DNA of 64,000 nt, taken from positions 2,554,807 through 2,618,806 of the forward strand of contig JAEAOA010000900.1 of NCBI GenBank assembly GCA_016746295.1. The letters run 5' to 3'. A program made the position numbers and the translations under genes. Under the pieces are notes generated by a model that saw nothing but the letters and a program-made list of their open reading frames with translations, was not told the DNA's origin and did no database searches. Below are positions 19,241 through 64,000 of this stretch, in pieces. The stretch comes from Potamilus streckersoni (lineage: Eukaryota). The stretch's first letter is position 1, and every line of letters starts with the position of its first letter.

Positions 19241-22200
19241 GTATGCTGGAAACAATATTTAATTACGTTTACTCATAAATTATATACTAAATGTAGTAAA
19301 GAAATGGTGCATCAACAATGGTCAGGAGGATGGAGAATCAGGAGCCATAGCTATTGTAAATAATGTCATGGAATATTAGAAATTAAACTCAATCAAGGCC
19401 TTATCAATACAAAAGTATGTTTTCAAGTTGGAACTCCAAGAAATCTTCAGAAATGTTATGTTGCTTTATTAGGAGGATAGGAATCCAGTTCCATAACTTC
19501 ACTAACTGAAATTGTGGATTGCTGGAGATCAGAATTATCAATATAAAGCAGCATACCAAATTTAGCTGAAATCCAAAAATCCTTGCTAATGCAAACCAGT
19601 TGAAATCAATGTCAGGAGGGTGGACAATCTGAGCCTTAACTCCTGTAAATGATGCTATGGAGGACCTGAAGACTTTTTCAAGATAAAAATAAATAATAAG
19701 CATCATAACAACCTAGGTTGAAATCTAACCAACCTAATTAAAGTCATGAAGGTCAATCAGGGACCCATAGCTCCCATATGCAATACAGAATGCTGGAAAA
19801 CCAACAAATTCATGGTTACATCATTACCTATAACTGCATGCCACATTTGGTTAAAATCCAAAAAAAATCTAGTTAATTATGCTGTGGAAGCAAAATTCAG
19901 GAAGACAAACATTCTTGGGGCATAACTCCTGTAAAAGATGGTTTTATAAAAATAATGGATCTGATTTGTCATGATCTAAAACTGTAACTTCTATCAAGCT
20001 GGTTGGCATGGTGTCAGGATAATGTGATTGGATGGTACATAATGCTAAATGTCTGCAGCATGATGCTCCCATTGCAAGACATCACTATAAACTGCCACAA
20101 TGAGACTTTTTAGTGATACGGGAAAATTATTTTAAAGCTACATTAAAAATCTAAAACACACAAACACACTCTATTAAGCTCAAAACCTCAGTATCCTGCA
20201 TTTCAAACCCAATATCTCTCTATACAAATAACAAGATCTGTCTTCAAGGAACACAACATCACAATAATTTGTTAAAATACAAATGCACTAACAATCAATA
20301 TGAACTTATTAAGTAAAACCAGGGTTCATTTAGGCAGCAGCCTTGCATTAATTATCCTTATTTTTCATCTCTGGCATAAGAAAGTTCCCGGCAAGGTGCC
20401 CCCCAGAGCTCATAAAAAAAATAAGAAAGGAAGGATAAAAGATCCTTACAGTTGATTTGAAACTCAAGTGCATAACATGCTTTGTTAAAGTAGCATTTTC
20501 ACTGATAAGTAAGTAGAATGTCATGGTTTTCATTAGCTGACAGAAATATCTGATTTTGATTATCTTAGACACATGTCCATGATCACTGATAGAAAATGTA
20601 AAGAAGAAAAGATGAAATCTTCACTGAAAACACTGCTGCATTTATTTCTATAGTAGTGTACAGGAAAGAAAATTTTTTGACTCAAATGTTCAAAATTAAT
20701 TCACATGGAGAATGGTTACTCAGGCCAACAGGAATTAAAAATTAAAGTCCCAGTACATAATGCTTTTGACCTGAAAGACTGATAATGATGACTGGTATTC
20801 TTGATTTATGAGTGCATACAATATATATTTTCTTTTCCAGCATTATATACTTTAAATACGTCATTATCGAGTCACACTAGAGCGTGATTTTCTCCAATGT
20901 CTGTGTTAAATATGGGACAGACTGATTTTCAGATGGATGGGGTTAGGAGTCTTGATTTTTTTTAAAAATCCAGCCATCAAATAACTTCATATATATACAT
21001 ATATATCTAATTATCTTATACTCCATTTATTTTTCCATTAACTTTACACTGTCAGAATTGTGCAGTATTTTATGATACTGAACACTCATATTGCACTCAA
21101 GTGTGCCTAAAGGAACTACTTTGTAAACCTAAACACTCGTACAGTAGTCTTTCGGTTTCAGTTTATTAGATTCGTTTGTGGATGAACTAAAACAGATGTT
21201 TTGTGTATTTGAAAGTAAAGTCAATATATTGATGTGGACGAGTTTACTGAGTCACAAATGAAATTTTAAAACAACTAAATGAATGAACGTGATACTCACA
21301 ATGTGCACAACAAATGTGAGAGATGCAGTATTGAAAATATTCTGATCATTTAAACAGTTATTTAGGAGAAATGTTCATAACATTTCTTTAATGGAATTGT
21401 TCAGATTATGGCCAGTGATCTCTGGGTTATATAAAAATAGCACAGAAAAGCATACCAAGGGCAAGGGCTATCACATTGTCAGATACATAACATTTTCTAC
21501 ATGAAAATACTAAATTTGTGCAGAAACAATAAGAAATGGAGGTCTTGTTAGAAAGGTAAGAACCTCACAGCCAACAACCCAAGATGATGAAGAATTCTTA
21601 TTTCCGCTGAGTGAATGTATTGTGATACATTAGATGCTTTACAATTGTCTGTGTTAACTTTGTTGATACAATGTTTTGGATTTAGGCTAGTGACAGATGC
21701 CATGATATTGAGTATGGGTCATAACATAACTCAGGAAGCATGCAAGTGACCATGCATAAACACATCTTCTTTAGTTGGTAATAAGAATGGCAAAAATATA
21801 CTTACAATTTTGCAACTTGAATTTCCTCAAAAGGTACTTTCTTTATTCTGCAAATCTGTATTCCATGAGATAAGGTCATGGATTCAAAAGTTTGCATACA
21901 CATTTACCAAAACTGTACTGTAATTTCAACTACGTTCCAAGTGCATTCTACTTACTGCACTCAAAATGAAATGAGCGTGAAATTCCACAGCATCTTTATG
22001 ATAATTACAACTGAAAGAGTTCATATTTTCCCACATTACGAAACCAAATATTCAATGATAGAATGGAAACACACATGCAGATAAGTCAAAACGTGTACCA
22101 GGCTCCCAGCTCAAATCACAGACACATGTATTTTGTAAGGAATTAAAACAACTAATAAATCCAGCAGAACTGAGTAGAATGGACACCCCTCCCAATTTCA

Positions 22201-23934: not shown

Positions 23935-24262
23935 TGAATTGTGTGATGTGTGTGATTTGGATTTTTAACATCGCTTTAACTATTTTTCAGTCATATCACT
24001 ATGATTTCTGTATTGTGGCAGTTTATAGTGATGTCTAGCACTGGGCATCTTGCCGCAGACATGTAGCACGATGTTCCACCAAGTCACATTATCCTGACAC
24101 CAAGCTGACCAGTCCTAACACTTTAATTCTAAGCAATGAGGCAGCTGTTAGTACCATTGTTATAAGTCTTTGGGGTATGACTCGGCCAGGAATCGAACCC
24201 ATTACCTCCCACATCTGGGGCAAACGCTCTAACCACTAGGCCACCAGAGCGGTTCTGAATTA
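23935..24262 (-). mobile_element. tRNA-derived SINE, family 1, about 320 bp. The tRNA-like head is ggcctagtggttagagcg... and the tail is ...aaatcacac.
   Basis: There are four further copies, at 30960-31275, 31300-31465, 57120-57410 and 60200-60490. The head has a tRNA D-arm and T-arm architecture. Confidence 0.8.
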
Positions 24263-30959: not shown

Positions 30960-31275
30960 CTTTAAAACAGTGTGTGTGATTTGGATTTTTAATACAGCTT
31001 TAAAATATGTTCAGTCATATCACTACACTATCTGCAGTGTGACAGTTTATAGTGATGTTTAGAACTTGGGCAATATGCCGCAGACATGTAGCATTATGTC
31101 CTGCACAGTCACATTATTCTGACACCAGGCTAACCAGTCCTAACATTGACCTCTTAATGCTGAATGCCAAGTGAGACAGCTGCAAGTATCATTTTTTAAA
31201 AAGTCTTTGGTATGACTAGGTTGGGGTTAAAACCTGTGACCTCCTGCATCCAAGACTGATGCTCTAACCACTTAG
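30960..31275 (-). mobile_element. SINE family 1 copy.
   Basis: About 85-90% identical to 23935-24262. Confidence 0.8.
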
Positions 31276-31299
31276 GCCACTGGAGAGGTAGAAAATATG

Positions 31300-31465
31300 T
31301 TATTCTTCAAAACTAATTTTCCTTTGGGTCACTATGACCATGAATCCCAAGTGAGACAGCTGCAATTACCATTTTTTAAAAAGTCTTTAGTATGACTAGG
31401 TTGGGGTTAAAACCTGTGACCTCCTGCATCCAATACAGATGCTCTAACCACTTAGTCCACTGGAG
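31300..31465 (-). mobile_element. Tandem partial second copy of the SINE family 1 head region.
   Basis: A unit of about 180 bp is repeated head-to-tail with 31150-31300. Each copy ends in aatatgttattcttcaaaactaattttcctttgggtcac. Confidence 0.7.
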
Positions 31466-51616: not shown

Positions 51617-51748
<132 letters not shown>

Positions 51749-51883: not shown

Positions 51884-52144
51884 TTAATAAACGAGGGCTC
51901 TATCACCCCTCTTGACTTTTTCCTGTTTTGCATTGTTCACTTTGTTCTCAACAGCTCTGATATGATGTATTCTATTCATATAGTTCGGTGTCATTCTTGT
52001 AATCATTTTGTAAGCCTGCCAGATTCCCTTTCTCTCGCCGGTAGAGGGCAGACTTGTACCGATAATATTAAATTCGTTGTGTTTGTGGATATCGACTCCC
52101 ATGGCCCTAAAAACATCTTCTGGTGGTATTGCTGAGCGACAATC
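51884..52144 (-). CDS. ARF-like GTPase terminal exon: DCRSAIPPEDVFRAMGVDIHKHNEFNIIGTSLPSTGERKGIWQAYKMITRMTPNYMNRIHHIRAVENKVNNAKQEKVKRGDRALVY*.
   Basis: The acceptor is ttgtattttaaatag|GAT, in phase 0. The stop is TAA at 51884-51886. Compare ARF1 [45 protein letters not shown]. Confidence 0.75.
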   Translation of the reverse strand, partial: DCRSAIPPEDVFRAMGVDIHKHNEFNIIGTSLPSTGERKGIWQAYKMITRMTPNYMNRIHHIRAVENKVNNAKQEKVKRGDRALVY

Positions 52145-52807
52145 CTATTTAAAATACAATAAATATACTTGACATTGCCATAAGGCAAACCATTTTGTGA
52201 GCAGCTGGTCTTTAGTTAGTAACTGTAACATCATTTATTGGATAAATAGCATCAGGTCTAAAAAAAACTATTTAGCATTTCACAAGCATTTTTAATATCT
52301 TTTTCTTTCATATACAAATGATTTTGAAGATAAATTATTACAAAGATATTTTCGGCAAACTTAAAGCATTTTTGTACAAAAATTTCCTTGAAAACCGGAC
52401 TACTTGTGTGAGGAAAGCATAATGTTAGAGGACCGAACGATCCTTTTGATGAATATAACCCTCATTGGAAAGATAGGGATAATGTGACCTTTTCCCACAA
52501 ACGAGTAACTTTTCAAGAAAATATCTACTGTCTTCCGAAATAAAGTTAGTTGTTTCTTGAAGGAAATTTAATTCTTATTCATCTTAGCGAAAAATCACAT
52601 TCATTAAAAGGTTGTACACTTTTAGATTTCCTTCATCGCATTATTTTTCATTAATAAATTAAACTTTTTCGCTGCCAAATAAAATAAAGACTATAACGAA
52701 AGAATTAGTATCTCCGTGTGAAGAAATGTTTATGAACATTGTACTCTCTACACAAAGGAACAAGAAACAAAGAATGTAAGGCTAAATTATGTATCTGCAA
52801 CCGTTAC

Positions 52808-52989
52808 CTGCTTGCTGGCAATGATAATGACAGGTAAACCTCTCGTTTCTGGATGACGTAAAAAGCGGTGAAGGGCACATCGAGATTCAAAAAAGCGTTC
52901 AGCTGCGCTGGAATCCACCACCCATACCACAACATCAATGTCCAGCAAAAATTCTCTCCAATAGCTCCGACCATCTACGGCGCCACCAA
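52808..52989 (-). CDS. ARF-like GTPase exon with switch II and G4: (V)GGAVDGRSYWREFLLDIDVVVWVVDSSAAERFFESRCALHRFLRHPETRGLPVIIIASKQ.
   Basis: The acceptor is tttctacag|TT, which completes GTT (Val) with the G from the previous exon. The donor is CAG|gtaacg. Pattern compared with the ARF family: WDVGGQ..W..YF....IFVVDS.DR......EL..L......PVLVFANKQD. Confidence 0.8.
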
Positions 52990-53319
52990 CTGTAGAAAGT
53001 TCAGAAGACATATCAGTTAACTAAATAGATGACCCCATACTCTTCAAACTTTTAAATAGAAACTCGACCTTAATACATCGCTTAACTTGAGCCTAGCATC
53101 TCACTTACCTTGAATGCAGCGAACACAATAGTTGACAACTGGTAAATGAATAGACTTCCGCTCGGAAGTTCATGTGAATCTTTTTGGTCAACAAAATACA
53201 GCGACGTTCTATCCGATTCAAATGACCAAAGCAATTGAACTTTCAAATATGTGAAGCGGAAGTCGCATCTAATTAACTAGTGTCGTATTATGCATTAGAA
53301 GTTTAAATAACAAAAACTT

Positions 53320-53980
53320 ACAGTTTTCCTCACTGGTTTTACTGACTTTTAAAAAGACCTTGTATATCTTAGGTATTGTTAAAAGAACATTTAATTTCCT
53401 TTGGTTTGGTGTATGATAGATTGGTGTAGTATGGGTTATAGAGTAAGCAGCTTGGCCTTACTTCAGTTGTGCACCTTTGGGGGTGGGGGAAAACAACTGT
53501 TAGTACCACTAGGTCATTTCTACTTCATGGTGGAAAATTGTAAATGAAAGAGCCGATACATTTTTTTTTACATTGTATATATTTCTAAATTCCGTCATGA
53601 CACCTTCAGAAGCTGGTATTTTCTGGGTTTTTTAAAATACTGTTTTAAGAACTGTAAACTTTAGACTAAGTCAGGTCCACTTTTGAGCACATGGGAGCAG
53701 TCATTTGGGTTAGATGTCTGTTTAGATCATATACAATTTCCACAAGTAAAATATTCAAGAAAATTGCATCCACCGTACATGAAATTAACATAGAGGTACT
53801 CCAACATTATCTCCATTATGCATGTTGCGAATGTGAACAATTTCACCTTACACCTGTCACTCTTTCAGAAGTTCATCATGTCTGCAGAGCCCACCCGACC
53901 CCCTTAATAACGCAAATCCTTATTTTAGGAATTTGGCATTTTCGTACACCCTTTGAATTCACATATATCTAAAAATGTTT
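53320..53980 (+). mobile_element. Second, shorter copy of the same integrase-derived element, zinc-finger region only. It lies inside ARL intron 1.
   Basis: It is about 80-85% identical to 58690-59330. The two copies share the same 5' boundary, ...tttcctcactRgtt.tactg.... The ORF at 53691-53972 parallels the ORF at 59054-59260. Confidence 0.6.
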
Positions 53981-54132
53981 TAATATCTTTACCGTTTAAC
54001 TTTTGCACAGTAGGAGTAAACGTTGCGTTTTTTGGAAGAGTTTATCTCCCAAAGGTGTTTAAACAATATTTACATTTAAATTTTTTGCTTTAATCAGCTC
54101 TGTACTACCATCATTGTGTTGATGTACCGTTA

Positions 54133-54180
54133 ACATACATACATACATACATACATACATACATACATACATACACACAT
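54133..54180. repeat. (ACAT)n microsatellite.
   Basis: Read directly. Confidence 0.9.
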
Positions 54181-54407
54181 ACATGCTGCCACAGTGGTAT
54201 TCTTAGAATAAACGGATATTTCTGTTCTTGCGTGAAAAGTTGTTAAAAGAAACCTAAGAATGTAATTCGAACCATTATTACTTTTACTGAGTATCTCTGA
54301 AAATGTTTTTAAGTGCGATAATTTATGGAATGCAATATGGTGTGAAATTTGAGAGACTGGTCGTCCTGTTTTAATTTACAGAATTTACAAAATATCATTA
54401 ATCAATA

Positions 54408-54408
54408 A

Positions 54409-54470
<62 letters not shown>
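54408..54470. repeat. (AAAT)n microsatellite that starts 8 nt into ARL intron 1.
   Basis: Read directly. It begins immediately after the donor gtaagc. Confidence 0.95.
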
Positions 54471-54471
<1 letters not shown>

Positions 54472-54477
54472 GCTTAC

Positions 54478-54661
54478 CATCCCATATGTCAAAGCAGGTA
54501 TCTCCAATTGGGACAGATTTAACGCAAAATCCCACGGTGGGTGCAGGATCCATTACAGTGTCTCTGGGATTTGCATTTGGGTGAAAGCAGCTAACAAATT
54601 TAGTTTTCCCGGCCCCATCCAAACCTAAGACGAGAACCCTTCTATTAGAAGAACATTTTTG
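54478..54661 (-). CDS. ARF-like small GTPase, exon with P-loop and switch I: QKCSSNRRVLVLGLDGAGKTKFVSCFHPNANPRDTVMDPAPTVGFCVKSVPIGDTCFDIWD. The 5' boundary is uncertain and the initiator Met is probably in an upstream exon.
   Basis: GLDGAGKT is a P-loop. PTVGF is the switch I Thr region. FDIWD then meets the donor GATG|gtaagc. Two candidate acceptors lie at 54662-54663 and 54683-54684. Upstream of this exon there is a TAA in frame before any ATG. The ORF-track 'M' at 54691 is a TTG codon. Confidence 0.75.
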
Positions 54662-55395
54662 CTGCAAAGAGAAGAGACGAAAGCTAAACAAAAAGTAGTT
54701 GCAGTTTTATCGGAGGTTGTTTATCATGAGAGCATACTTACCCGCACTGCAGTTGTAATATACCAGAACTATCATAGTTTTAAGTTTCATGTCAAATAGA
54801 TAAAGGAACTGGAACTTTCACCATCCATATAATTAATGTTGACAATGTTCAGCTTTGTGCCTCATGACTAACTACTACAAAGTTAACTGGTGCCTCATCC
54901 TGTTGTCAACAAGTAGTCAACAGTAGCGTAGCAAGCCATTCTATGCCACCACCCTTCAAACAATTATGGAGCCCCCTCCCAAAATAAATAAGTTGTTTGA
55001 TGAGACATTTGAGCAATAATATGCAATATTAATATGCAATATTATAATCAGCAGTTGTATTAAATGACAGTCATTCATATATTGCACAGTGAATTTTAAA
55101 TACTGAATTTGTTCTGTGCGGTTGAAACTAATTAATTAGGTGTAGTCTCGATTATTTGTCCTATATTATTTTATGTAATGCCTTTTCTTTTATACTTTCT
55201 TTTCTTTTGCCATTCCCGGTTGGCATTTTTTTTTCTGGCAAAATTGGTGAAATCAATTTCAAATTTCTTTTAAAAATAGTATCTTTGAGGTTCATGATGA
55301 AAACTCAATCACTGAATTTCAATGTTACCCTTAAAATACTCAAGAATATGTCAAAAGACAACGACAAATAAGATGACAACTGAAAAATACTCCAA

Positions 55396-55399
55396 TGTT

Positions 55400-55456
<57 letters not shown>
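55396..55456. repeat. (CA)n microsatellite.
   Basis: Read directly. Confidence 0.95.
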
Positions 55457-55458
<2 letters not shown>

Positions 55459-57020
55459 TCTCTGCTGAAAATTACGACAGTTCCATTATAATGAGACTTA
55501 GAAGTCGTCGAGTGACAGATGATGTCTTCGGGATGGGGGAGGGCTGAGGGCGGATAAATTCGTCGTTAAAAAAATGGAAAACGGATCTACGAAGCCTGTC
55601 TGTTCATCGCTTAATTGGTTGGTTGGAGTTGTGCATCAGACTGTTTCAAATTTTAAGTTTTTAATCATAAACAGTGTAATGAATATTAATTCACATTGTT
55701 TGTTAGATTTTTTAAATCTCAATATTTGATAGAGTTATGTAAAATTTTATTTCATAGATTACCTTGTCTAGAATTAATTTCATTCTTTACCTGACCAGAA
55801 TTATTGATTTTGGTTTTGTAAACAACATGTTTATCTCAATCTGAGTCCAAAACGTTGGAAATTACCCATGAAATGCTGTGTCTTCCTCTAGTTTACCACA
55901 TTTTACACTGTAATTTTAGAACCAGACATTCTAATTATAAATAAGATTTTATTTTATAAATATGAACTCTTGACCCTCACCGGAGTTATTCTTTTATGTT
56001 TAAAATCTAGTCTACTGGAAAATTATTTACTCCTGCTATAACATCTGGGCAGAAATAATTGATATTGTTGTATTCAGATTTTAATATTTTTACAATTATT
56101 TATTATTCTCTGGAATTACAGTGGCTCGATAATATTTTTGGAAAGAGACATTAACTGAGAATTGTAGTGAATTCAAAAAATGAAACCTTGGATTATATTA
56201 CTGCGATTCAGTGAAAGACTGTTAGGATATCATTAAAATTTAGGTCATTAGCACATTAGTGACTACCGGTCACTGCATTTACATCAACACCATCAGCGTT
56301 GGAAATTATTTGGAATACCATTGAAGAATATTCAAAAATTTATTCATCAGGAATTGTGGTAGTAATTCTAAGATTATTTGGGATTTAATTCGAAATAACA
56401 TAAGTTCTCTTCTTTACTTTTTCACTTTATGTTCTAGGTAATAAATTATTTGTTGATTTTGTTTTTACAAAACTTATTGGTTTTCTATTGCTTTTTTAAG
56501 ACCACAGAGTCGTAATAGAAAATTGGGGACGGGGGCTCGTGTTCGGGATACAAATTTCTCTAAAATAATTCAGAAAACTGTTTCTCAAATTTAAATTTAC
56601 GTTGTTTCGGAATTACATAAGGTATTATTTGATATATTTGAGAAATCAATAGTGAAACCACCAATCTGTCATAATCTCATCCAAAGTGTATATTATTTTA
56701 AATTCTGCCCCGGAAAGGTTAGAGTCCTTGCAAATGAATGAATTGCTCCAGCTTCAATGACAAAATGATCTTTCTGAGGCGAAGGCTTCTTTAATGAATC
56801 AAGAAGTAAATATTTTGGTTCAATATATGTTAGAAAATAATTTTTGGATAAATGTGCTTTAGGTTTGATTGGTAAGTTTCTATATACCTCTAACTTGCAA
56901 GTTGTTAGATTGAAATTAAAATATAAGAATGAAATTGAGTTAAGAAAGCTTGAGCTTCAGAAAGAGGAACGACAAATGCAATTAGAGAAAGAGGAAAAAG
57001 AGAGACATATACAACTGTTT

Positions 57021-57036
<16 letters not shown>

Positions 57037-57110
<74 letters not shown>
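57037..57110. repeat. (GA)n microsatellite, left part of an array split by the SINE.
   Basis: Read directly. Confidence 0.95.
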
Positions 57111-57117
<7 letters not shown>

Positions 57118-57119
57118 GA

Positions 57120-57565
<446 letters not shown>

Positions 57566-57785
57566 TCAAGTTGAATTAAAAGAATCTGAGCTGGCAAAAT
57601 GAAAGTACCACCACCCATTTTACACATAAATTCAGGTTTTGATGTTACTAAGAATATTAGGGTTTTCTTATGGAAAAATAATTACATAAATATTATCCTC
57701 ATTTTGAAACAAAAATACAGAAAATTTTAAGTGGTCAAAAGAGTACTGGATTCTGTTATTACAAAGGACACTTTTTAGTAAAGCT

Positions 57786-57925
<140 letters not shown>

Positions 57926-58689
57926 AACACACACACAAACACACTTCGCTGTCAGTATAGCAAAGTACTGATTACGATCTCCTTAACGCATTATCTTGAA
58001 GGATTATGAGCTGGTACCTGATGTATATCGACAAAGGTTCAGGAACTACTGTATAAAAAAGAAACTGGACAAACCCATTTTGAATTTGCACGAGAGAAAC
58101 AGCAATTAATTGATAGGTGGTGCTCAGTCAAGAATGTTGGACAAGATTACAAAAATCTCAGACAACTCATTAATTGAAGAGTTCAAGAATTGATTCCATG
58201 GTGACTTTTAAACTTACCTTGATGAGCACAAGATGGAAACGTTAGAAAATGCTGTTCGTACGGCTGACAATTATTCCTTAACCTACAACGTTGTTTTGTC
58301 AGTAAGTCTTCTACTCAGCCGTCGTCTGGTAAAAGCTGAATCAGCCTAATACAAGCACTTCCGAATCTCATTCTGGCACAGATTTTAGGAATCAAGTTTC
58401 TAATAAGACTAATCATGAAATCGTATCTCTTCCTATGTACACGCACCTGTTGCAAGAAGAGAGGGCATGCTATTTCTGATTGCTACAGATTGAACAATAA
58501 GTAACAGAATGAAGACATACCTATTCCAAATGTTCTTATTTCTAAGAGGTCAATGTCACGGTTATATATTGAAAGTAATACATTTGTTGGGTCAAACAAA
58601 TCCCAGTCTGATTTAGGTGGCGCTCTACAGTTTCGTATTTAGCATAGGGTTAAAATTTTAAAGAAAAAGAGTTTCCCCGGGTTTCCTCA

Positions 58690-60006
58690 CTAGTTATACT
58701 GGTGTTTTAAAAGAGACTTTGTATATCTTAGGTATTGTTCAAAGAACCTTTAATTCCCTTTATTTTGATGTATGATTGATGGGTGTAATATGGGTTAGAG
58801 AGTATACAGCTTGACCTTACTGCAGATGTGCACCTTTCAAAAAAGTGCTAGCTCTACTTGCTCATTTTCACTTCTCGAACTTCAGAGGTAAATTGTTAAA
58901 AAAAGAGCCGATAACTTTTTTTTACATTTTATGTATTTGGTAATTCAGTCATTGCACTTTTAGAAGCTGGTATTATCTAGTTTGGCAAAATTCATTTTCC
59001 ATATTTTAATAGCTGCCAAGAATAGTGTACTTTAGACAAATTTTGGTTGATTTTTGGAGCACAAGGGAGCAGTCATTTTAGTTCGCAGTGTCATAAGATC
59101 ATTTAAAATTTCCAAAAGTACAATATCCAAAGAAATTTCATCCACATTACATGAAAGTAGTATAAAGGTATGCCAACATTCTCTCCACTGTGCATGTTTA
59201 AAATGCAAACAACTTCACCTTACATACATCACTCTCTCAAAAGTACATAATAACTGGTGAGCGCCACCTTATTACGGAGAATAATGAGCCATTCATGTCC
59301 AATGGTTTCATATCACTCATGGGTGGTTCTGCCAATCCTATCCCTATTAAACTTTGAAGGGACACATGAGCTTCTCAGTGTCTTTTATTATCAGGTAGTT
59401 TGCTCTTTTTCTGACAAGTACCTGTTTGTTATTTTGTTAAAAATGGGGTCCTTGTGAGAAAATGGAGATCACATGAAATATCCGCTCTTATCCTAATCCA
59501 TAAAACACATTTGGCTGGTCATTTAGTGACCAATAAGACTTACCACAAGATCCTGAATAATTCTTATTCGACAAAATTTAAAAATGATGTTTGTAAATAT
59601 TTTAGATTGCACTTGTCAAACGGTAGGGAAACCCAATCAAAATATACCTAAGATTCATCTGCAGTCTATTCCTGCATTTGACGAACCACTTAGCAGAAGA
59701 ATGGTAGATTTTGTCAGTCCCTTGCCTAAGACCAAATCAGCCATCCAATGCTTGTTGACCATAATGTGTACGTTTAAAAGTTTCCTAGAGGCAACTCATT
59801 GGAGAAATATTAAAACTAAAAAGGAATTAAACGTTCTGATGACGTTTCTTTACTCAATTTGGCCTACCCAACTCTGTCAATCTTATCAAAGGTCAAAATT
59901 TATGTCTGGAATTTTCCAGCAAGTTATGCAAGAATCAGGCATTCAGCCATATAACTATTCGACCTATCACACTGAAAACCAAGGAGCTTTCGATTTTTTT
60001 TTTTAA
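58690..60006 (+). mobile_element. Degenerate Ty3/gypsy-type integrase remnant: an HHCC zinc-finger region plus a decayed DDE core.
   Basis: The ORFs at 59054-59260 read ...HESSIKVCQHSLHCACLKCKQ.... The ORF at 59584-60006 reads FDEPLSRRMVDFVSPLPKTKSAIQCLLTIMCTFKSFLEATHW...YHTENQGAFD. This matches the integrase core pattern IDFVGPLP...YLLV.VD.FTK.....P....YHPQ.DGQ.ER. There is no RT or LTR upstream, and a SINE truncates it at 60200. Confidence 0.6.
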
Positions 60007-60199
60007 TCAAACTTTGAAATATATGATTCGGTCATATTGCTTTGATATTGGATAAAAGTGGGACAAGGGTGTTTATTTACTGTTGTTTTATTGTTAGGGA
60101 GCCAGTTCAAAGATCTTTAGGATTTAGAGCCTTTGAACTAGTTTTTGAACATATTGCCCGTGGAACATTCAAGTTGTTAAATGAGAAAGTTCTTTGACT

Positions 60200-60490
60200 T
60201 GAGACTGCTCAAGTGGTCTAGTGGTTAGAGCGTCCGCCTCAAATGCGAGAGGTCAAACCCTGGCCGAGTCACACCTAAGACTTATAAAAATGGTGCTAAC
60301 ATAAAAATGGTACTAACAGTTGTCTCGCTAGGAGCTTAGCATTATGGGATTAGTGTTATAAATGGTCGACCTGGTGATTGGGTGAGACATGATGCTACAT
60401 GTTTGTGGGATGATGTGCTAAACATCTCTTTAAACTGACACATGGCAGACATCGCAGCGATATGACTGAAAATGTTTTACAGTTATATTA
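60200..60490 (+). mobile_element. SINE family 1 copy in plus orientation, followed by a (CA)n(CG)n tail.
   Basis: The head is tggtctagtggttagagcgtccgcc... It truncates the integrase-like ORF upstream. Confidence 0.8.
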
Positions 60491-60495
60491 AAACT

Positions 60496-60500
60496 TAAAA

Positions 60501-60541
<41 letters not shown>
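60496..60541. repeat. (CA)n followed by (CG)n at the SINE tail.
   Basis: Read directly: cacacacacacacacacacacacacgcgcgcgcgcgcgcgcg. Confidence 0.9.
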
Positions 60542-60546
<5 letters not shown>

Positions 60547-61699
60547 GCGTCTTTCAAACGAAGATACAGAAATTAATCCTCTCGACTATATTTCTATTTT
60601 ACGGGGACAATAAACAAAAAGTGACTGGAGTTCACCATGTATTCTTGTACCCACCCCCAAAAAAAGAAACGATAACACTTTTCGTATGCGCACTGGCTAC
60701 AAAACAGTGAATAGTGTGACCAATACAGGTTCATTTCCATTGTCAAGAATTGATGACTGCGTTGATAAAATTGGAAGTGCGCCTCATGTCACCAAATTTA
60801 CCTTTTGAAAGGATTCTCACAAATTCCACTGATGGAAAAGTTAAAGGAAATTTCGGCTTGATATTATCGGAAATTTTGTTCCAACTTTTCCATAACTGAC
60901 ACTAGGGAGGATACAGTCTTCGTTAAACACACACACACAGCCATTCACAAGTAGAATTATCCTTTGCAGCCGACACATTTTCTATTCAAAACTTTTCTAA
61001 ATTTTCTTAGTAGTCTTCAATTACTGCTATAAGAATAAAATATCCGGGATATAATCTGCGCTACATAAATGTACACAAAGTAATAGATGTGGCTATGGCT
61101 CATGTTTTCTATGTGAATGATTTATAATTTCTAACCTGACTGTGACCAGAATGACACTAATACTGGCATCCTCTTGCACCTTTCATGCTTAACGGACTTT
61201 CTATACTAACAAGGAACCATAATCCGTACACTATGATCCAATTTATTTCCATCGGACAACATAATGACGTAATTCATCATATTCGGTAACTGCCGAATAA
61301 TTCCAAAAATGACCGTAACGTTGAGTTTGGAATTATATTCCTTTGCACACATGAACATATTAATGAAACCGCTTGTTGAATCCACGTGAAAGACAATTTT
61401 TGTGTTTTCATTCTTTTCCTTTGTTTGATTCATCACGGTATATCAGAAGCAGACGACATATGTATGTACATCTTTAGTCGCGCATACACCCCTTTGCTGA
61501 AAATTGACTGGTCCAGGAACTGGAAATGGGTATTAAGCATGTCAGTCTATCATATTGAAAACTTCCGTTAAGCATGAAACGCGCAGACGATAACCGTGTT
61601 ATGGCCATTCTACTCACAGTCTGGTTAGAACATATAAATCAATTAATGAATTGACTAAGTTCTTTGCACTTTTTATCAAATTAAAGGTTTCCGTTGTGG

Positions 61700-62030
<331 letters not shown>

Positions 62031-62679
62031 AAGCTGGTTTATGACCACACTCCATTAAGACTCTTAAAATCGTGATCTTATTTGGAATTATGTTTTTAAC
62101 AAGCATTGGGTGTATTATTTTCGCAGGATTTGAAAATTAGTCATATCTTCATTTGGTATAATTAAATACAATTATTAATTTATATAATTTTCATTTTTAG
62201 TTGCGATAAAATCAACAGTTGCAATTACAAATTTTTATTTTGTCTACCCCGTTAGTGCTATTAGGTTACCTTGATATTTTCTCTCAATTATAGGACAAGT
62301 AATAAATAGTTTCCAACTGGACAGTTTGAAAAAGGTTATTATACTTTGTAGATGCATTGACCACTTAGTGATAAACAGCAGAGTCAGTCTAATATTTTCT
62401 TTTCTGAGGAGTTCTGTTTGCAGGCTTTTTTGGGGCAGGGTATTTCCAACTGCAGTGGATGTTTGAAGGCATAAACAGTAGTGATGTTGATACTTTTATT
62501 TCTGCATTTATTTTTCTGCCAGTTTTGATGTTTTCTTTGTACTATGTACATTTTTCTCATTTGAGATCATTTTTAGATTCAGTTATATGTTGTTATGGAT
62601 GGAATGTATGATCACTCTTGATATTTTGGTGATATTGCTAACTACAGGGAAGTAACTGAAGAAGTTTACATAATGACAG

Positions 62680-62696
<17 letters not shown>

Positions 62697-62760
<64 letters not shown>

Positions 62761-62865
62761 GGATTTAATGCATGTTGTTCAGCTACGAGTTCACTTAATA
62801 GGCTACCAAACTGCCTATTTTTAATCTTATCTTGGCCTACCATACCAACCACTCACCTGCCCCCC

Positions 62866-62942
<77 letters not shown>
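62697..62942. repeat. (TA)n at 62697-62757, then a compound (CT)n(CA)n at 62868-62942.
   Basis: Read directly. Confidence 0.9.
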
Positions 62943-62945
<3 letters not shown>

Positions 62946-64000
62946 TATTTAATAATCGTTCTGGTTCAGATTATTTTCAGGTTTTCCTTAACTCTATATA
63001 TATGCATAATTATTGAATATGAGAGCTGTTGGATGTGCTGGTAAATGAATTGATATGTACATGAAATAAGTTACGAGTTGATGATGACATTGTTAAGTTT
63101 ATTGGTATTAAATGTATTTTATTGGCATTTTCAGTTTTTAAAAATCCTCAAGATTGATGTAAAAAAAATGCACAATAATCTTTTATTTTAAAAAGTATAT
63201 TGATTGGTATGTTTCTATGACTCTGAGATTAGTCTTATAACATTGGGTGTATTCAGTTAGTTAATGAACAAGAGCCACATTTCTTTCTTTTTTTCTTTGG
63301 GGTTTTCTGCTTTATCGGTAATTATTATCCCTTCCATGTTAAATTTATATCGCTATTTGCACTCCATGCTGCACATTCTATTTGAAATATCGTCAGCTTA
63401 TTCATGTACGCACTTTGATATGAAACAAAGTCTGAACTTATGAGTTTATGTATTTTTCTGGTCCTAGTTGAATTTTATAATTTTTTTTGTCTCCTGTCCA
63501 AAGGTTCACGATGTACATTTAACTTTGCATTATCTGTCTTTACTATTTTCATGCTGATGTTTAGTATGCAAACATCTCTTGAACATTGTATTTATGTAGT
63601 TTACACCGAGGTCTGCTGATTTAATACTTTATTAATTTAAATCTATTGAGTCTAAAAATTAGTATTTTAGCATCAGTACGATTTAAACCAGTCACACATT
63701 GGCAATTACCGCGCTCTATTAAATGTGAATATTTATGGCATGATTTGTATAATAGCTGTCCATGTGAAATAAGCTGAAGCTAAGGCCCATAGCTTATGCA
63801 TTAATCCACGTTAATGGTTTAACTGTATGATTGGTTTATTGATTCAAAGGGGTATATTTATTCAGTCATATCAAATGTTACGTCGTTCTTATGAAAGAAA
63901 TATGCATGCATGCGTATGTGTTGGTATGTAATTATACATAGATGGGTAGATGTTTTGTGGATGTATATTTTCACAAATATCATAAACAACTCTTCAGACA

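What the first reader, a model, noticed from the sequence alone, without database searches (positions are those of the whole stretch)
51884..54661. ARF-like GTPase with non-canonical G3 (DVGGA) and G4 (SKQD) motifs
The three-exon gene has a normal P-loop (GLDGAGKT) and a switch I Thr (PTVGF). The catalytic glutamine of WDxGGQ is replaced by alanine (FDIWDVGGAVDGRSYW). The NKxD guanine-specificity motif reads ASKQD, so Asn has become Ser. There is also an extended insert between the P-loop and switch I (FHPNANPRDTVMDPAP). These substitutions predict an ARL with impaired intrinsic or GAP-stimulated hydrolysis and possibly altered nucleotide specificity. The architecture resembles the divergent ARL16 / ARL6 branch. 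The initiator exon was not found. An in-frame TAA precedes exon 1 with no ATG between, and the ORF-track M is a TTG.
Basis: partly seen in the sequence, partly recalled or inferred. Interest (0 to 1): 0.65.

Follow-up and report, generated by a model that had tools for sequence, protein, structure and literature searches.

The report
Bivalve ARL10 GTPase gene, first exon missing
This is a real, intact gene for a freshwater-mussel-type copy of ARL10, a known animal GTPase family that lacks the catalytic glutamine in every member sampled here, so the odd-looking motifs are typical of the family and not a new kind of protein.

Summary
On the minus strand, three GT-AG-bounded exons (54661-54478, 52989-52808, 52144-51884) encode 208 aa of an ARF-family G domain. 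It has GLDGAGKT, PTVGF, WDVGGA (Ala in place of the switch II Gln) and ASKQD (Ser in place of the NKxD Asn).

The family assignment is wrong. The protein is not near ARL16 or ARL6. It is the bivalve orthologue of ARL10, the metazoan Arl10 family that became ARL9 and ARL10 in vertebrates.

- It is 93% identical to a Sinanodonta woodiana protein.
- Against the curated ARF complement of the mollusc Lottia, its best match is Arl10a (129 bits; next family 85; Arl6 57; Arl16 18).
- Family HMMs built without mollusc sequences give Arl10 127-143 bits, against 99 for the next family.
- None of 33 Arl10-clade sequences has the Gln. Ser/Thr in G4 recurs in molluscs, a bryozoan and Nematostella.

The missing initiator exon encodes a 52-aa hydrophobic N-terminal anchor in the orthologue. 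It is absent from the 9.3 kb upstream in the window, so it probably lies beyond position 64000. dN/dS against Sinanodonta is 0.09, so the gene is functional. Interest is low: a new member of a known family.

The parts
54478..54661 (-). Coding exon 2 of the ARL10 orthologue (first exon present in the window). It encodes QKCSSNRRVLVLGLDGAGKT...CFDIWD plus the first base of Val. It contains the P-loop (54625-54602), the lengthened alpha1-switch I loop (54586-54539) and switch I PTVGF (54541-54527).
   Evidence: Acceptor cag|CAA in phase 0 and donor G|gtaagc. The same borders are used in Sinanodonta.
52990..54477 (-). Intron of 1488 bp, phase 1, splitting the WD|VGGA switch II motif. It carries (AATA)16 directly after the donor and (ACAT)13.
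52808..52989 (-). Coding exon 3. It encodes (V)GGAVDGRSYWREF...PVIIIASKQ. The Ala codon GCC at 52981-52979 replaces the catalytic Gln. The Ser codon AGC at 52816-52814 replaces the Asn of NKxD.
   Evidence: Alignment to ARL1 and ARL6.
52145..52807 (-). Intron of 663 bp, phase 0, between SKQ and D of the G4 motif.
51884..52144 (-). Last coding exon. It encodes DCRSAIPPEDVF...GERKGIWQAYKMI plus a unionid-specific C-terminal tail of about 37 aa (52000-51887), then stop TAA at 51886-51884.
   Evidence: Tail dN/dS is 0.43 against 0.05 for the core. The tail is predicted helical in the orthologue.
54662..64000 (-). 3' part of the first intron. The initiator exon is not here. In Sinanodonta that exon is 52 aa (MGGIKELIDTKEFYFAAGAATIALTYGVYKFAKYLDFQDEYFQTVNNWCWVK), lies 4.9 kb upstream of exon 2, and ends in phase 0. 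This stretch contains repeat copies and a decayed integrase-like ORF.
   Evidence: tblastn, blastn and nhmmer find no match. Collinearity with the Sinanodonta intron runs up to about 57200. The integrase (rve) hit is weak.

Best explanation
The three exons are the 3' four-fifths of the single-copy-looking bivalve orthologue of ARL10. ARL10 belongs to the metazoan-specific Arl10 family of ARF-like GTPases, which duplicated into ARL9 and ARL10 in vertebrates.

The complete protein is about 260 aa in Sinanodonta. It starts with a separate 52-aa exon that encodes a moderately hydrophobic N-terminal helix and a short acidic DEYF linker, and that exon lies outside the window.

Shown here:
- An intact ARF-type G domain with P-loop, switch I Thr, DxxG, and the Lys and Asp of G4.
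- No switch II Gln.
- Strong purifying selection.
- Best match to Arl10 among all ARF paralogues.

Inferred from human ARL10 (PMC11166204, PMC12722892):
- The protein is held permanently on an organelle membrane by its N-terminal anchor. In human this is the mitochondrial outer membrane and peroxisomes. It does not cycle on and off membranes through a myristoylated amphipathic helix as ARFs do.
- It binds guanine nucleotide.
- It hydrolyses GTP slowly because the water-positioning Gln is missing (Ala here, Ser in human).
- A sizeable fraction therefore sits in the GTP form, and any switching would depend on a GAP that supplies catalytic residues or on nucleotide exchange.

The Ser for Asn in G4 is a lineage variant. 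It probably lowers nucleotide affinity somewhat without changing base specificity.
For: Identity and function of the gene:
- Pfam Arf E = 3.5e-33.
- 93% identity over all 208 aa to Sinanodonta woodiana P0001, and 48% to Solemya P0002.
- Same exon borders, and dN/dS 0.09 overall (0.05 in the core).

Family assignment:
- Against the curated 23-member ARF complement of Lottia gigantea (Vargova et al. 2021, PMC8358228 supplementary dataset): Arl10a 129.1 bits, Arl10b 89.4, then Arl19b 85.1, Arl1 84.5... Arl6 57.3, Arl16 17.8.
- Family HMMs on the G domain only, with no mollusc in the Arl10 models: Arl10 143.0 / 126.6 bits, vertebrate ARL9/10 104.3, next Arl19 99.3, Arl2 87.8, Arl6 66.7, Arl16 27.5. 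The curated LgiArl10a shows the same profile.
- The curated-only Arl10 HMM gives 135 bits.
- An exhaustive profile search returns a set of 213-260 aa proteins aligned from the N-terminal helix onward. These include P0293, which is XP_002740037.1 and is classified as SkoArl10 with a TM, and P0313, which is LgiArl10b. Clusters named 'ARL10' from Mytilus and Branchiostoma are also among them.
- The NJ tree puts the window protein in one clade with all curated Arl10 plus ARL9/ARL10.

Motifs and structure:
- None of 33 clade members has the switch II Gln. G4 is S/T/A in most molluscs, in Watersipora and in NveArl10.
- The AF2 model of the orthologue has a long N-terminal helix (residues 10-52) and a high-confidence ARF fold. 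TM-score normalised to target is about 0.9 against GTP-bound ARL1, ARL3, ARL6 and ARF6.

Literature on human ARL10:
- TM segment plus polybasic stretch targets it to mitochondria and peroxisomes.
- It lacks the Gln (S132).
- 29% is GTP-bound in cells.
Against: - Bootstrap support in my simple NJ analysis is weak: 36% for the whole Arl10 clade and 50% for the mollusc subclade. The published study also calls the position of Arl10 unstable.
- The curated Arl10 HMM also scores conserved Arl3, Arl2 and Arl1 of Lottia at 144 bits or more. Only the comparison across HMMs for one target is informative, not the raw score.
- The N-terminal anchor could not be seen in this window. In the orthologue its Kyte-Doolittle mean is only 1.05 over 19 aa, below the classical TM cut-off. 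Membrane insertion is therefore plausible but not shown.
- Localisation, nucleotide binding and hydrolysis are extrapolated from human ARL10, which is only about 33% identical.
- The function of ARL10 itself is still unknown.
Confidence: 0.85

Rival explanations
1. It is a mollusc-specific, fast-evolving ARF-like paralogue that only resembles Arl10 by convergence. On this reading the N-terminal hydrophobic helix was gained independently and the Gln was lost independently.
For: - Low bootstrap for the Arl10 clade (36%).
- Pairwise identity to human ARL10 (33%) is no higher than to ARL1 or ARL2.
- N-terminal TM regions were acquired several times in the ARF family.
Against: - A margin of 27-44 bits for Arl10 HMMs that contain no mollusc sequence.
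- The published ML analysis already files the Lottia relatives as Arl10a/b.
- Shared architecture, the shared DE[YG]F linker motif with annelid, arthropod, bryozoan and nemertean Arl10, and the shared YW.EF / GxRKG signatures.
- No other, 'conventional' Arl10 from a bivalve surfaced among the named hits.
Confidence: 0.07
2. It is a member of the ARL6 (BBS3) or ARL16 branch. That would make it a cilium-related GTPase with a divergent switch II.
For: - The best PDB sequence hit is Chlamydomonas ARL6, which has DMSGA and a similarly long alpha1-switch I loop.
- Human ARL16 also lacks the Gln (RELGGC; PMC11166204).
Against: - Arl6: 57.3 bits against LgiArl6 and 66.7 bits against the Arl6 HMM.
- Arl16: 17.8 and 27.5 bits, the lowest of all families.
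- In the tree, Arl6 and Arl16 each form 100%-supported pairs far from the window protein.
- Lottia has separate canonical Arl6 (DMSGQ) and Arl16 genes.
- The orthologue has a hydrophobic N-terminus, unlike either family.
Confidence: 0.02
3. It is a decaying or non-functional copy: a pseudogene or truncated gene that has lost its first exon in this genome.
For: - No initiator exon in the 9.3 kb upstream, whereas the Sinanodonta intron is only 4.9 kb.
- The G3 and G4 motifs are non-canonical.
Against: - dN/dS is 0.09 overall and 0.05 in the G domain over dS = 0.34.
- There is no frameshift or stop, and all four internal splice sites are intact and identical to Sinanodonta.
- The upstream region holds repeat insertions, which can simply have lengthened the intron.
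Confidence: 0.04

Closest known systems
Arl10 family of ARF-like GTPases (Vargova et al. 2021, PMC8358228): human ARL10 and ARL9, Saccoglossus SkoArl10, Lottia LgiArl10a/b
   Same: - ARF-type G domain with VLVLGLDGxGK[ST].
- No switch II Gln (S, A, T, R, G or D instead).
- The YW.EF motif after switch II.
- In the orthologue, an N-terminal hydrophobic helix in place of the myristoylated amphipathic helix.
- Restricted to Metazoa.
- The best-scoring family by every sequence test.
   Different: - Ala rather than Ser at the Gln position.
- Ser rather than Asn in G4. This is shared with several molluscs, a bryozoan and Nematostella, but not with vertebrates.
- An alpha1-switch I loop 4-5 residues longer than in human ARL10.
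- No acidic or low-complexity spacer of the vertebrate type.
- A unionid-specific C-terminal tail of about 37 aa.
- The anchor is only moderately hydrophobic and has few flanking basic residues (YKFAKY).
ARL6 / BBS3 (for example Chlamydomonas ARL6, PDB 4V0K-4V0O)
   Same: - Best PDB sequence match (E = 2e-25).
- CrARL6 also has Ala at the Gln position (DMSGA).
- It also has a lengthened loop before switch I.
   Different: - Not the same family by HMM or tree.
- ARL6 has an N-terminal amphipathic helix, NKMD in G4 and DMSG in G3.
- Molluscs keep a separate canonical Arl6.
SR-beta (signal recognition particle receptor beta subunit)
   Same: An ARF-related GTPase that is permanently anchored by an N-terminal transmembrane segment.
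   Different: - Very distant in sequence: LgiSRb gives only a 21-residue local match in BLASTP, and Pfam SRPRB gives E = 0.026.
- It is an ER protein, and the anchor was acquired independently.

Membership tests
ARF family (Pfam PF00025) | ARF-type G domain with G1 GxxxxGK[ST], switch I Thr, G3 DxxG and G4 xKxD | tested here: met
   - Pfam Arf E = 3.5e-33, 115 bits against a cut-off of 22.3.
- 209 PDB ARF/ARL chains below 1e-3.
- The AF2 model of the orthologue superposes on ARL1, ARL3, ARL6 and ARF6 with TM-score (normalised to target) of about 0.9.
Arl10 (ARL9/ARL10) | Closer to Arl10 orthologues than to any other ARF-family paralogue | tested here: met
   - LgiArl10a 129 bits against 85 for the next family.
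- Arl10 HMMs without molluscs 127-143 bits, against Arl19 99.
- curated-only HMM 135 bits.
- Caveat: that HMM is not selective on raw score.
Arl10 (ARL9/ARL10) | Monophyly with curated Arl10 sequences in a phylogeny | tested here: inconclusive
   - The NJ topology gives one clade of 34 sequences containing WINDOW, HsARL10, ARL9, SkoArl10 and LgiArl10a/b.
- Bootstrap support is only 36%.
- No ML program was available.
Arl10 (ARL9/ARL10) | N-terminal transmembrane or hydrophobic anchor instead of a Gly2-myristoylated amphipathic helix | tested here: inconclusive
   - The exon that would encode it is not in the window.
- The 93%-identical Sinanodonta orthologue has FYFAAGAATIALTYGVYKF, with a KD mean of 1.05, predicted as helix 10-52.
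- It begins MGGIKE... I ran no myristoylation prediction on it. The study's predictors mark the curated Arl10 sequences 'no' for Gly2.
Arl10 (ARL9/ARL10) | Absence of the conserved switch II glutamine | tested here: met
   - WDVGGA. The Ala aligns with the Gln of ARL1.
- 0 of 33 clade members have Gln.
- Stated for human ARL9 and ARL10 in PMC11166204 and PMC12722892.
Arl10 (ARL9/ARL10) | Localisation to the mitochondrial outer membrane and peroxisomes; partly GTP-loaded in cells | not testable with these tools
   Known only for human ARL10.
ARL6 (BBS3) | Best match to Arl6 orthologues; DMSGQ switch II; NKMD G4 | tested here: not met
   - 57.3 bits against LgiArl6 and 66.7 bits against the Arl6 HMM, rank 13 of 18.
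- The motifs here are WDVGGA and SKQD.
ARL16 | Best match to Arl16 orthologues; RELGG[CT] switch II; GxxGxGKT P-loop context LLxGxxxxGKT | tested here: not met
   - 17.8 bits against LgiArl16 and 27.5 bits against the Arl16 HMM, the lowest of all families.
- BLASTP E = 0.002 against human ARL16.

The most novel reading that the evidence does not exclude
Bivalve Arl10 may be drifting away from being a guanine-nucleotide switch.

- The unionid protein combines loss of the catalytic Gln (Ala) with loss of the G4 Asn (Ser).
- In the NJ tree, the sequences grouping closest to it outside the unionids are those of Ruditapes and Dreissena. These have lost the DxxGG motif altogether (HFWEGNE..., HFFEGDH...) and read SKQD / AAKQD.

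If so, membrane-anchored Arl10 in these animals would act as a constitutive, nucleotide-insensitive scaffold (a pseudo-GTPase), or would bind nucleotide with unusual affinity. Molluscs would then offer a natural series for dissecting what ARL10 needs its nucleotide for.
Probability: 0.15. Interest if true: 0.4.

Novelty: new member of a known kind. Interest (0 to 1): 0.15.

Why it matters
It matters little beyond annotation.

- It shows that the 'aberrant' G3 is the hallmark of a known, metazoan-wide but still functionally obscure family (ARL10/ARL9). It is not a private oddity.
- Public names for invertebrate members are unreliable. They are labelled ARL1, ARL2, ARL3, ARL4D, ARF6-like or hypothetical.
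- ARL10 has no assigned function, GEF, GAP or effector. The pattern of what is conserved could therefore guide experiments on the human protein. Conserved: the N-terminal anchor, the DE[YG]F linker, the P-loop, the switch I Thr, and K/D of G4. Free to vary: the Gln position and the G4 Asn.

Tried and rejected
- **Search for the initiator exon in 54662-64000.** I used tblastn with the N-termini of the Sinanodonta and Solemya orthologues, then blastn and nhmmer with the Sinanodonta exon-1 region. Only microsatellite matches came back, so the exon is not in the window.
- **The 27-aa ATG ORF at 54790-54707 (MKLKTMIVLVYYNCSAG|gtaagt) as a candidate first exon.** Rejected. Its donor is phase 1 and the acceptor is phase 0, and the join runs into a stop. 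In Sinanodonta both ATGs and the GT donor are lost.
- **Pairwise BLASTP/phmmer against ten human ARF/ARL proteins** (sequences verified by exact look-up). This did not discriminate: ARL1, ARL10, ARL2, ARL3 and ARF6 all fall at 74-80 bits.
- **The second word-indexed homologue search with a mixed alignment**. It returned almost only fish ARL9 and no invertebrates. The exhaustive profile search was what found the family.
- **The raw score of a curated Arl10 HMM as a membership test.** Rejected after the control showed that Arl3, Arl2 and Arl1 score as high.
- **Structural search**. It cannot separate ARF subfamilies.
- **Synteny with the HIG1-domain neighbour seen in Sinanodonta.** No conserved coding exon was detected in the window, only 3' flank collinearity and repeats.
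- **Sequencing error or alternative acceptor restoring DxxGGQ.** Rejected, because codons and splice sites are identical in a second genome.
Full report
**What is in the sequence.** The window is AT-rich eukaryotic DNA (GC 0.30-0.41), full of microsatellites and with almost no long ORFs. The finding lies on the minus strand. Reading the reverse complement and joining the pieces gives three exons with canonical borders:

- 54661-54478: acceptor tctctttgcag|CAA, donor G|gtaagc.
- 52989-52808: acceptor ttctacag|TTGG, donor CAG|gtaacg.
- 52144-51884: acceptor ttaaatag|GATT, stop TAA at 51886-51884.

The 627-nt CDS translates to 208 aa: QKCSSNRRVLVLGLDGAGKT...PTVGF...FDIWDVGGAVDGRSYW...IIIASKQD...ALVY*. 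The Ala codon (GCC, 52981-52979) and the Ser codon (AGC, 52816-52814) sit where ARL1 has the switch II Gln and the Asn of NKQD (HMMER alignments). The sequence upstream of 54661 with the in-frame TAA and the TTG is intron.

**It is a real, constrained gene.**

- Pfam Arf matches at E = 3.5e-33.
- The closest database protein is a 260-aa 'hypothetical protein' of the unionid mussel Sinanodonta woodiana (P0001), 93% identical over all 208 residues. Solemya velum follows at 48%.
- I fetched the Sinanodonta locus (L001). It has the same three exons with the same borders.
- Nei-Gojobori dN/dS between the two species is 0.09 overall (dS 0.34). It is 0.05 in the G domain and 0.43 in the last 36 residues.
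- The GCC and AGC codons are identical in both genomes.

Sequencing error, mis-splicing and pseudogene status are thereby excluded as explanations for the unusual motifs.

**The missing first exon.**

- In Sinanodonta the protein starts with a separate 156-nt exon (L001 10001-10156, phase 0). It encodes MGGIKELIDTKEFYFAAGAATIALTYGVYKFAKYLDFQDEYFQTVNNWCWVK and lies 4.9 kb upstream of the exon that corresponds to 54661-54478.
- Sensitive tblastn, blastn and nhmmer find nothing like it in 54662-64000.
- Collinearity with the Sinanodonta intron can be followed only to about 57200. Beyond that there are copies of an interspersed repeat, long dinucleotide arrays and a decayed integrase-like ORF.
- The simplest reading is a longer first intron, with exon 1 beyond the window end.
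- A tempting ATG mini-ORF at 54790-54707 with a GTAAGT donor is not the initiator exon. It is out of phase with the acceptor, and neither its ATGs nor its donor are conserved.

**Which family.** Pairwise comparison with ten human ARF/ARL proteins did not discriminate between ARL1, ARL10, ARL2, ARL3 and ARF6. I had verified by exact look-up that my recalled sequences are the database sequences. The comparison did already show ARL6 as low and ARL16 as barely detectable.

The N-terminus of the orthologue, a hydrophobic helix in place of a myristoylated amphipathic helix, pointed to ARL10. Vargova et al. 2021 (PMC8358228) define Arl10 as a metazoan-specific ARF paralogue with an N-terminal transmembrane region, which duplicated in vertebrates into ARL9 and ARL10.

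An exhaustive profile search of 1.84 billion representatives returned a series of 213-260 aa proteins that align from that N-terminal helix to the C-terminus.

- Among them is P0293 = XP_002740037.1, which that study's supplementary table lists as 'SkoArl10, Arl10, TM'.
- P0313 is identical to their LgiArl10b.
- Clusters containing proteins named ARL10 in Mytilus coruscus and Branchiostoma lanceolatum are also present.
- The remaining named members come from scallop, abalone, oysters, clams, a chiton, a bryozoan, a nemertean, a crinoid, a sea urchin, a horseshoe crab and a bee. They carry an inconsistent mix of automatic names: ARL1, ARL2, ARL3, ARL4D, ARF6-like, uncharacterized.

**Tests of membership.**

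1. I scored the window protein, which lacks the N-terminal exon so that only the G domain counts, against the complete curated ARF-family complement of the mollusc Lottia gigantea. It hits LgiArl10a at 129.1 bits and LgiArl10b at 89.4. After that come Arl19b 85.1 and Arl1 84.5, down to Arl6 57.3 and Arl16 17.8.
2. I built small family HMMs from G domains only. The Arl10 models contained no mollusc sequence. The window protein scores 143.0 and 126.6 bits with Arl10 and 104.3 with vertebrate ARL9/10 alone. Other families score lower: Arl19 99.3, Arl2 87.8, Arl6 66.7 and Arl16 27.5. The curated LgiArl10a gives the same profile.
3. A model made only of sequences the publication classifies as Arl10 gives 135 bits. 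The control in the same call is a caution. That model also scores well-conserved Arl3, Arl2 and Arl1 at 144 bits or more, so only the comparison across models for one target is meaningful.
4. A neighbour-joining tree of 63 sequences over 161 G-domain columns recovers one clade with the window protein, all curated Arl10, and ARL9/ARL10. This clade sits next to Arl15 and Arl2/3, as in the published trees. Bootstrap is weak, at 36% for the clade and 50% for the mollusc subclade, whereas Arl1, 2, 3, 5, 6, 8 and 16 pairs get 99-100%. I count this as consistent but not decisive.
5. The AlphaFold2 model of the orthologue (mean pLDDT 80, G domain above 90) shows a long N-terminal helix (residues 10-52), a standard ARF fold and a C-terminal helix. 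Foldseek matches GTP-form ARL6, ARL3, ARL1, ARF6 and ARL8 about equally well. Structure therefore confirms the superfamily but cannot choose the subfamily, and no ARL9/10 structure appeared among the matches.

**The 'non-canonical' motifs in family context.**

- In 33 Arl10-clade sequences the residue after DxxGG is S, A, T, R or G, and never Q. The curated NveArl10 reads WEIGGD.
- The literature says the same for human ARL9 and ARL10 (PMC11166204, PMC12722892). So the Ala is an ordinary state of a family-defining character.
- The G4 Asn is kept in most non-mollusc members. It is Ser, Thr or Ala in Lottia a/b, Haliotis, Solemya, Mizuhopecten, Saccostrea, Ruditapes, Dreissena and the unionids. 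It is Ser in the bryozoan Watersipora and in the cnidarian NveArl10.
- The Lys and the Asp of the motif are invariant. From general knowledge of Ras-like GTPases, not tested here, that Asp reads the guanine base. Dynamin-type GTPases work with TKxD. I therefore expect guanine specificity to be retained and at most affinity to change.
- The loop between the P-loop and switch I is 21 residues from GKT to the switch I Thr. It is 16 in ARF1 and 17 in human ARL10. Other bivalve Arl10 share the longer loop (Solemya and Mizuhopecten). It is a low-confidence loop in the model (pLDDT about 59).

**How it most likely works.** Shown: an intact, selected ARF-type G domain without the catalytic Gln, belonging to Arl10, whose orthologue carries an N-terminal hydrophobic helix.

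Inferred from human ARL10:

- The helix, together with flanking basic residues, inserts the protein permanently into an organelle membrane. In HeLa cells this is the mitochondrial outer membrane and peroxisomes. Deletion of the TM abolishes targeting.
- The ARF-style myristoyl/amphipathic-helix membrane switch therefore does not apply.
- The protein binds GDP and GTP, with 29% GTP-bound in cells.
- Hydrolysis without the Gln should be slow or GAP-dependent.

What ARL10 does downstream is unknown. Proximity data hint at mitophagy, peroxisomal import and mTORC2.

For the bivalve protein the anchor is only moderately hydrophobic (Kyte-Doolittle mean 1.05) and has few basic neighbours. The target membrane is therefore an open point.

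**Verdict.** However, it attached the gene to the wrong branch and read family-typical features as exceptional. The gene is a new member (an unannotated or 'hypothetical' orthologue) of a known kind.

The only mildly interesting residue of novelty is the erosion of nucleotide-binding motifs within mollusc Arl10. This runs from S/T in G4 to complete loss of DxxGG in Ruditapes and Dreissena. It leaves open, at low probability, that these proteins are becoming pseudo-GTPases.

Noticed in passing
window 19999-20169, 23939-24254, 30970-31300, 57114-57405, 60213-60515; also L001 4693-5016, 13138-13328, 20012-20186, 23606-24172, 26571-26831: An interspersed repeat of about 300 bp is present in at least five copies in the window and several in the Sinanodonta locus. 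Copies are 68-86% identical between the two genomes and occur in both orientations. It is a shared unionid SINE/MITE-like element. Two copies lie in the first intron of the ARL10 gene.
   Followed up: no
window 59584-60006 (+): A 140-aa ORF inside the first intron has a weak match to the retroviral/retrotransposon integrase core (Pfam rve, E = 0.0047, 17.6 bits, below the cut-off). It is probably a decayed transposon remnant, and may help explain why this intron is longer than the 4.9 kb seen in Sinanodonta.
   Followed up: partly
window 54407-54471, 54133-54184, 51625-51747, 55403-55456, 57025-57111, 57406-57562, 57805-57922: Dense microsatellites lie in and around the gene.
- A perfect (AATA)16 starts 7 bp after the exon-2 splice donor.
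- (ACAT)13 lies in the same intron.
- A perfect (GA)61 lies 137 bp beyond the stop codon.
- Long AG/GA/CA/AT arrays lie in the first intron.
Sinanodonta has no array at the position of the AATA array.
   Followed up: no
window 54707-54790 (-): A 27-aa ATG ORF ends in a consensus GTAAGT donor just upstream of exon 2 and looks like a first exon. It is out of phase with the acceptor. Its ATGs and donor are not conserved in Sinanodonta, although the surrounding 125 bp are roughly 80% conserved by eye.
   Followed up: yes
window 51887-52000 (-); residues 171-208 of the conceptual protein: A C-terminal tail of about 37 residues lies beyond the G domain. It is present in the window and in Sinanodonta but absent from Solemya, scallop, oyster and Lottia Arl10. 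dN/dS over the last 36 residues is 0.43, against 0.05 for the core. The tail is predicted as a helix (residues 229-254 of the orthologue).
   Followed up: partly
related proteins P0281 (Ruditapes philippinarum) and P0302 (Dreissena polymorpha): In the NJ tree these two clam sequences group closest to the unionid gene among the non-unionid sequences. They have lost the switch II DxxGG motif entirely (HFWEGNETSGQ..., HFFEGDHIEHW...) and read GLKGAGKT / GLPGAGKS and SKQD / AAKQD. They keep the N-terminal helix and the C-terminal GxRKGLW signature. They are possible pseudo-GTPases.
   Followed up: partly
exon 1 of the orthologue (L001 10001-10156) and N-termini of Arl10 proteins: A short acidic-aromatic motif lies between the hydrophobic helix and the G domain. 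It is DEYF[EQ]x[VIL] in molluscs and DEGF[ED] in annelid, arthropod, bryozoan and nemertean Arl10. It is conserved across protostomes. In many sequences it fits the F-x-x-[VIL] pattern of an LC3-interacting region preceded by acidic residues. This is only a pattern match. I did not find it mentioned in the passages of the papers I read.
   Followed up: no
database records behind P0271-P0303: Invertebrate Arl10 orthologues carry contradictory automatic names: ARL1 (Ruditapes), ARL2 and 'ARF-like' (Mizuhopecten), ARL3 (Pinctada, Liolophura, Saccoglossus, Anneissia, Tubulanus, Limulus), ARL4D (Dreissena), ARF6-like (Haliotis, Mytilus), and 'uncharacterized' or 'hypothetical' (Saccostrea, Sinanodonta, Solemya). 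Only two records say ARL10.
   Followed up: yes
Lottia gigantea XP_009052438.1 / XP_009052436.1: The two Lottia Arl10 genes have nearly consecutive accession numbers, which suggests a tandem duplication in the gastropod lineage. The window gene is of the Arl10a type (129 against 89 bits).
   Followed up: no
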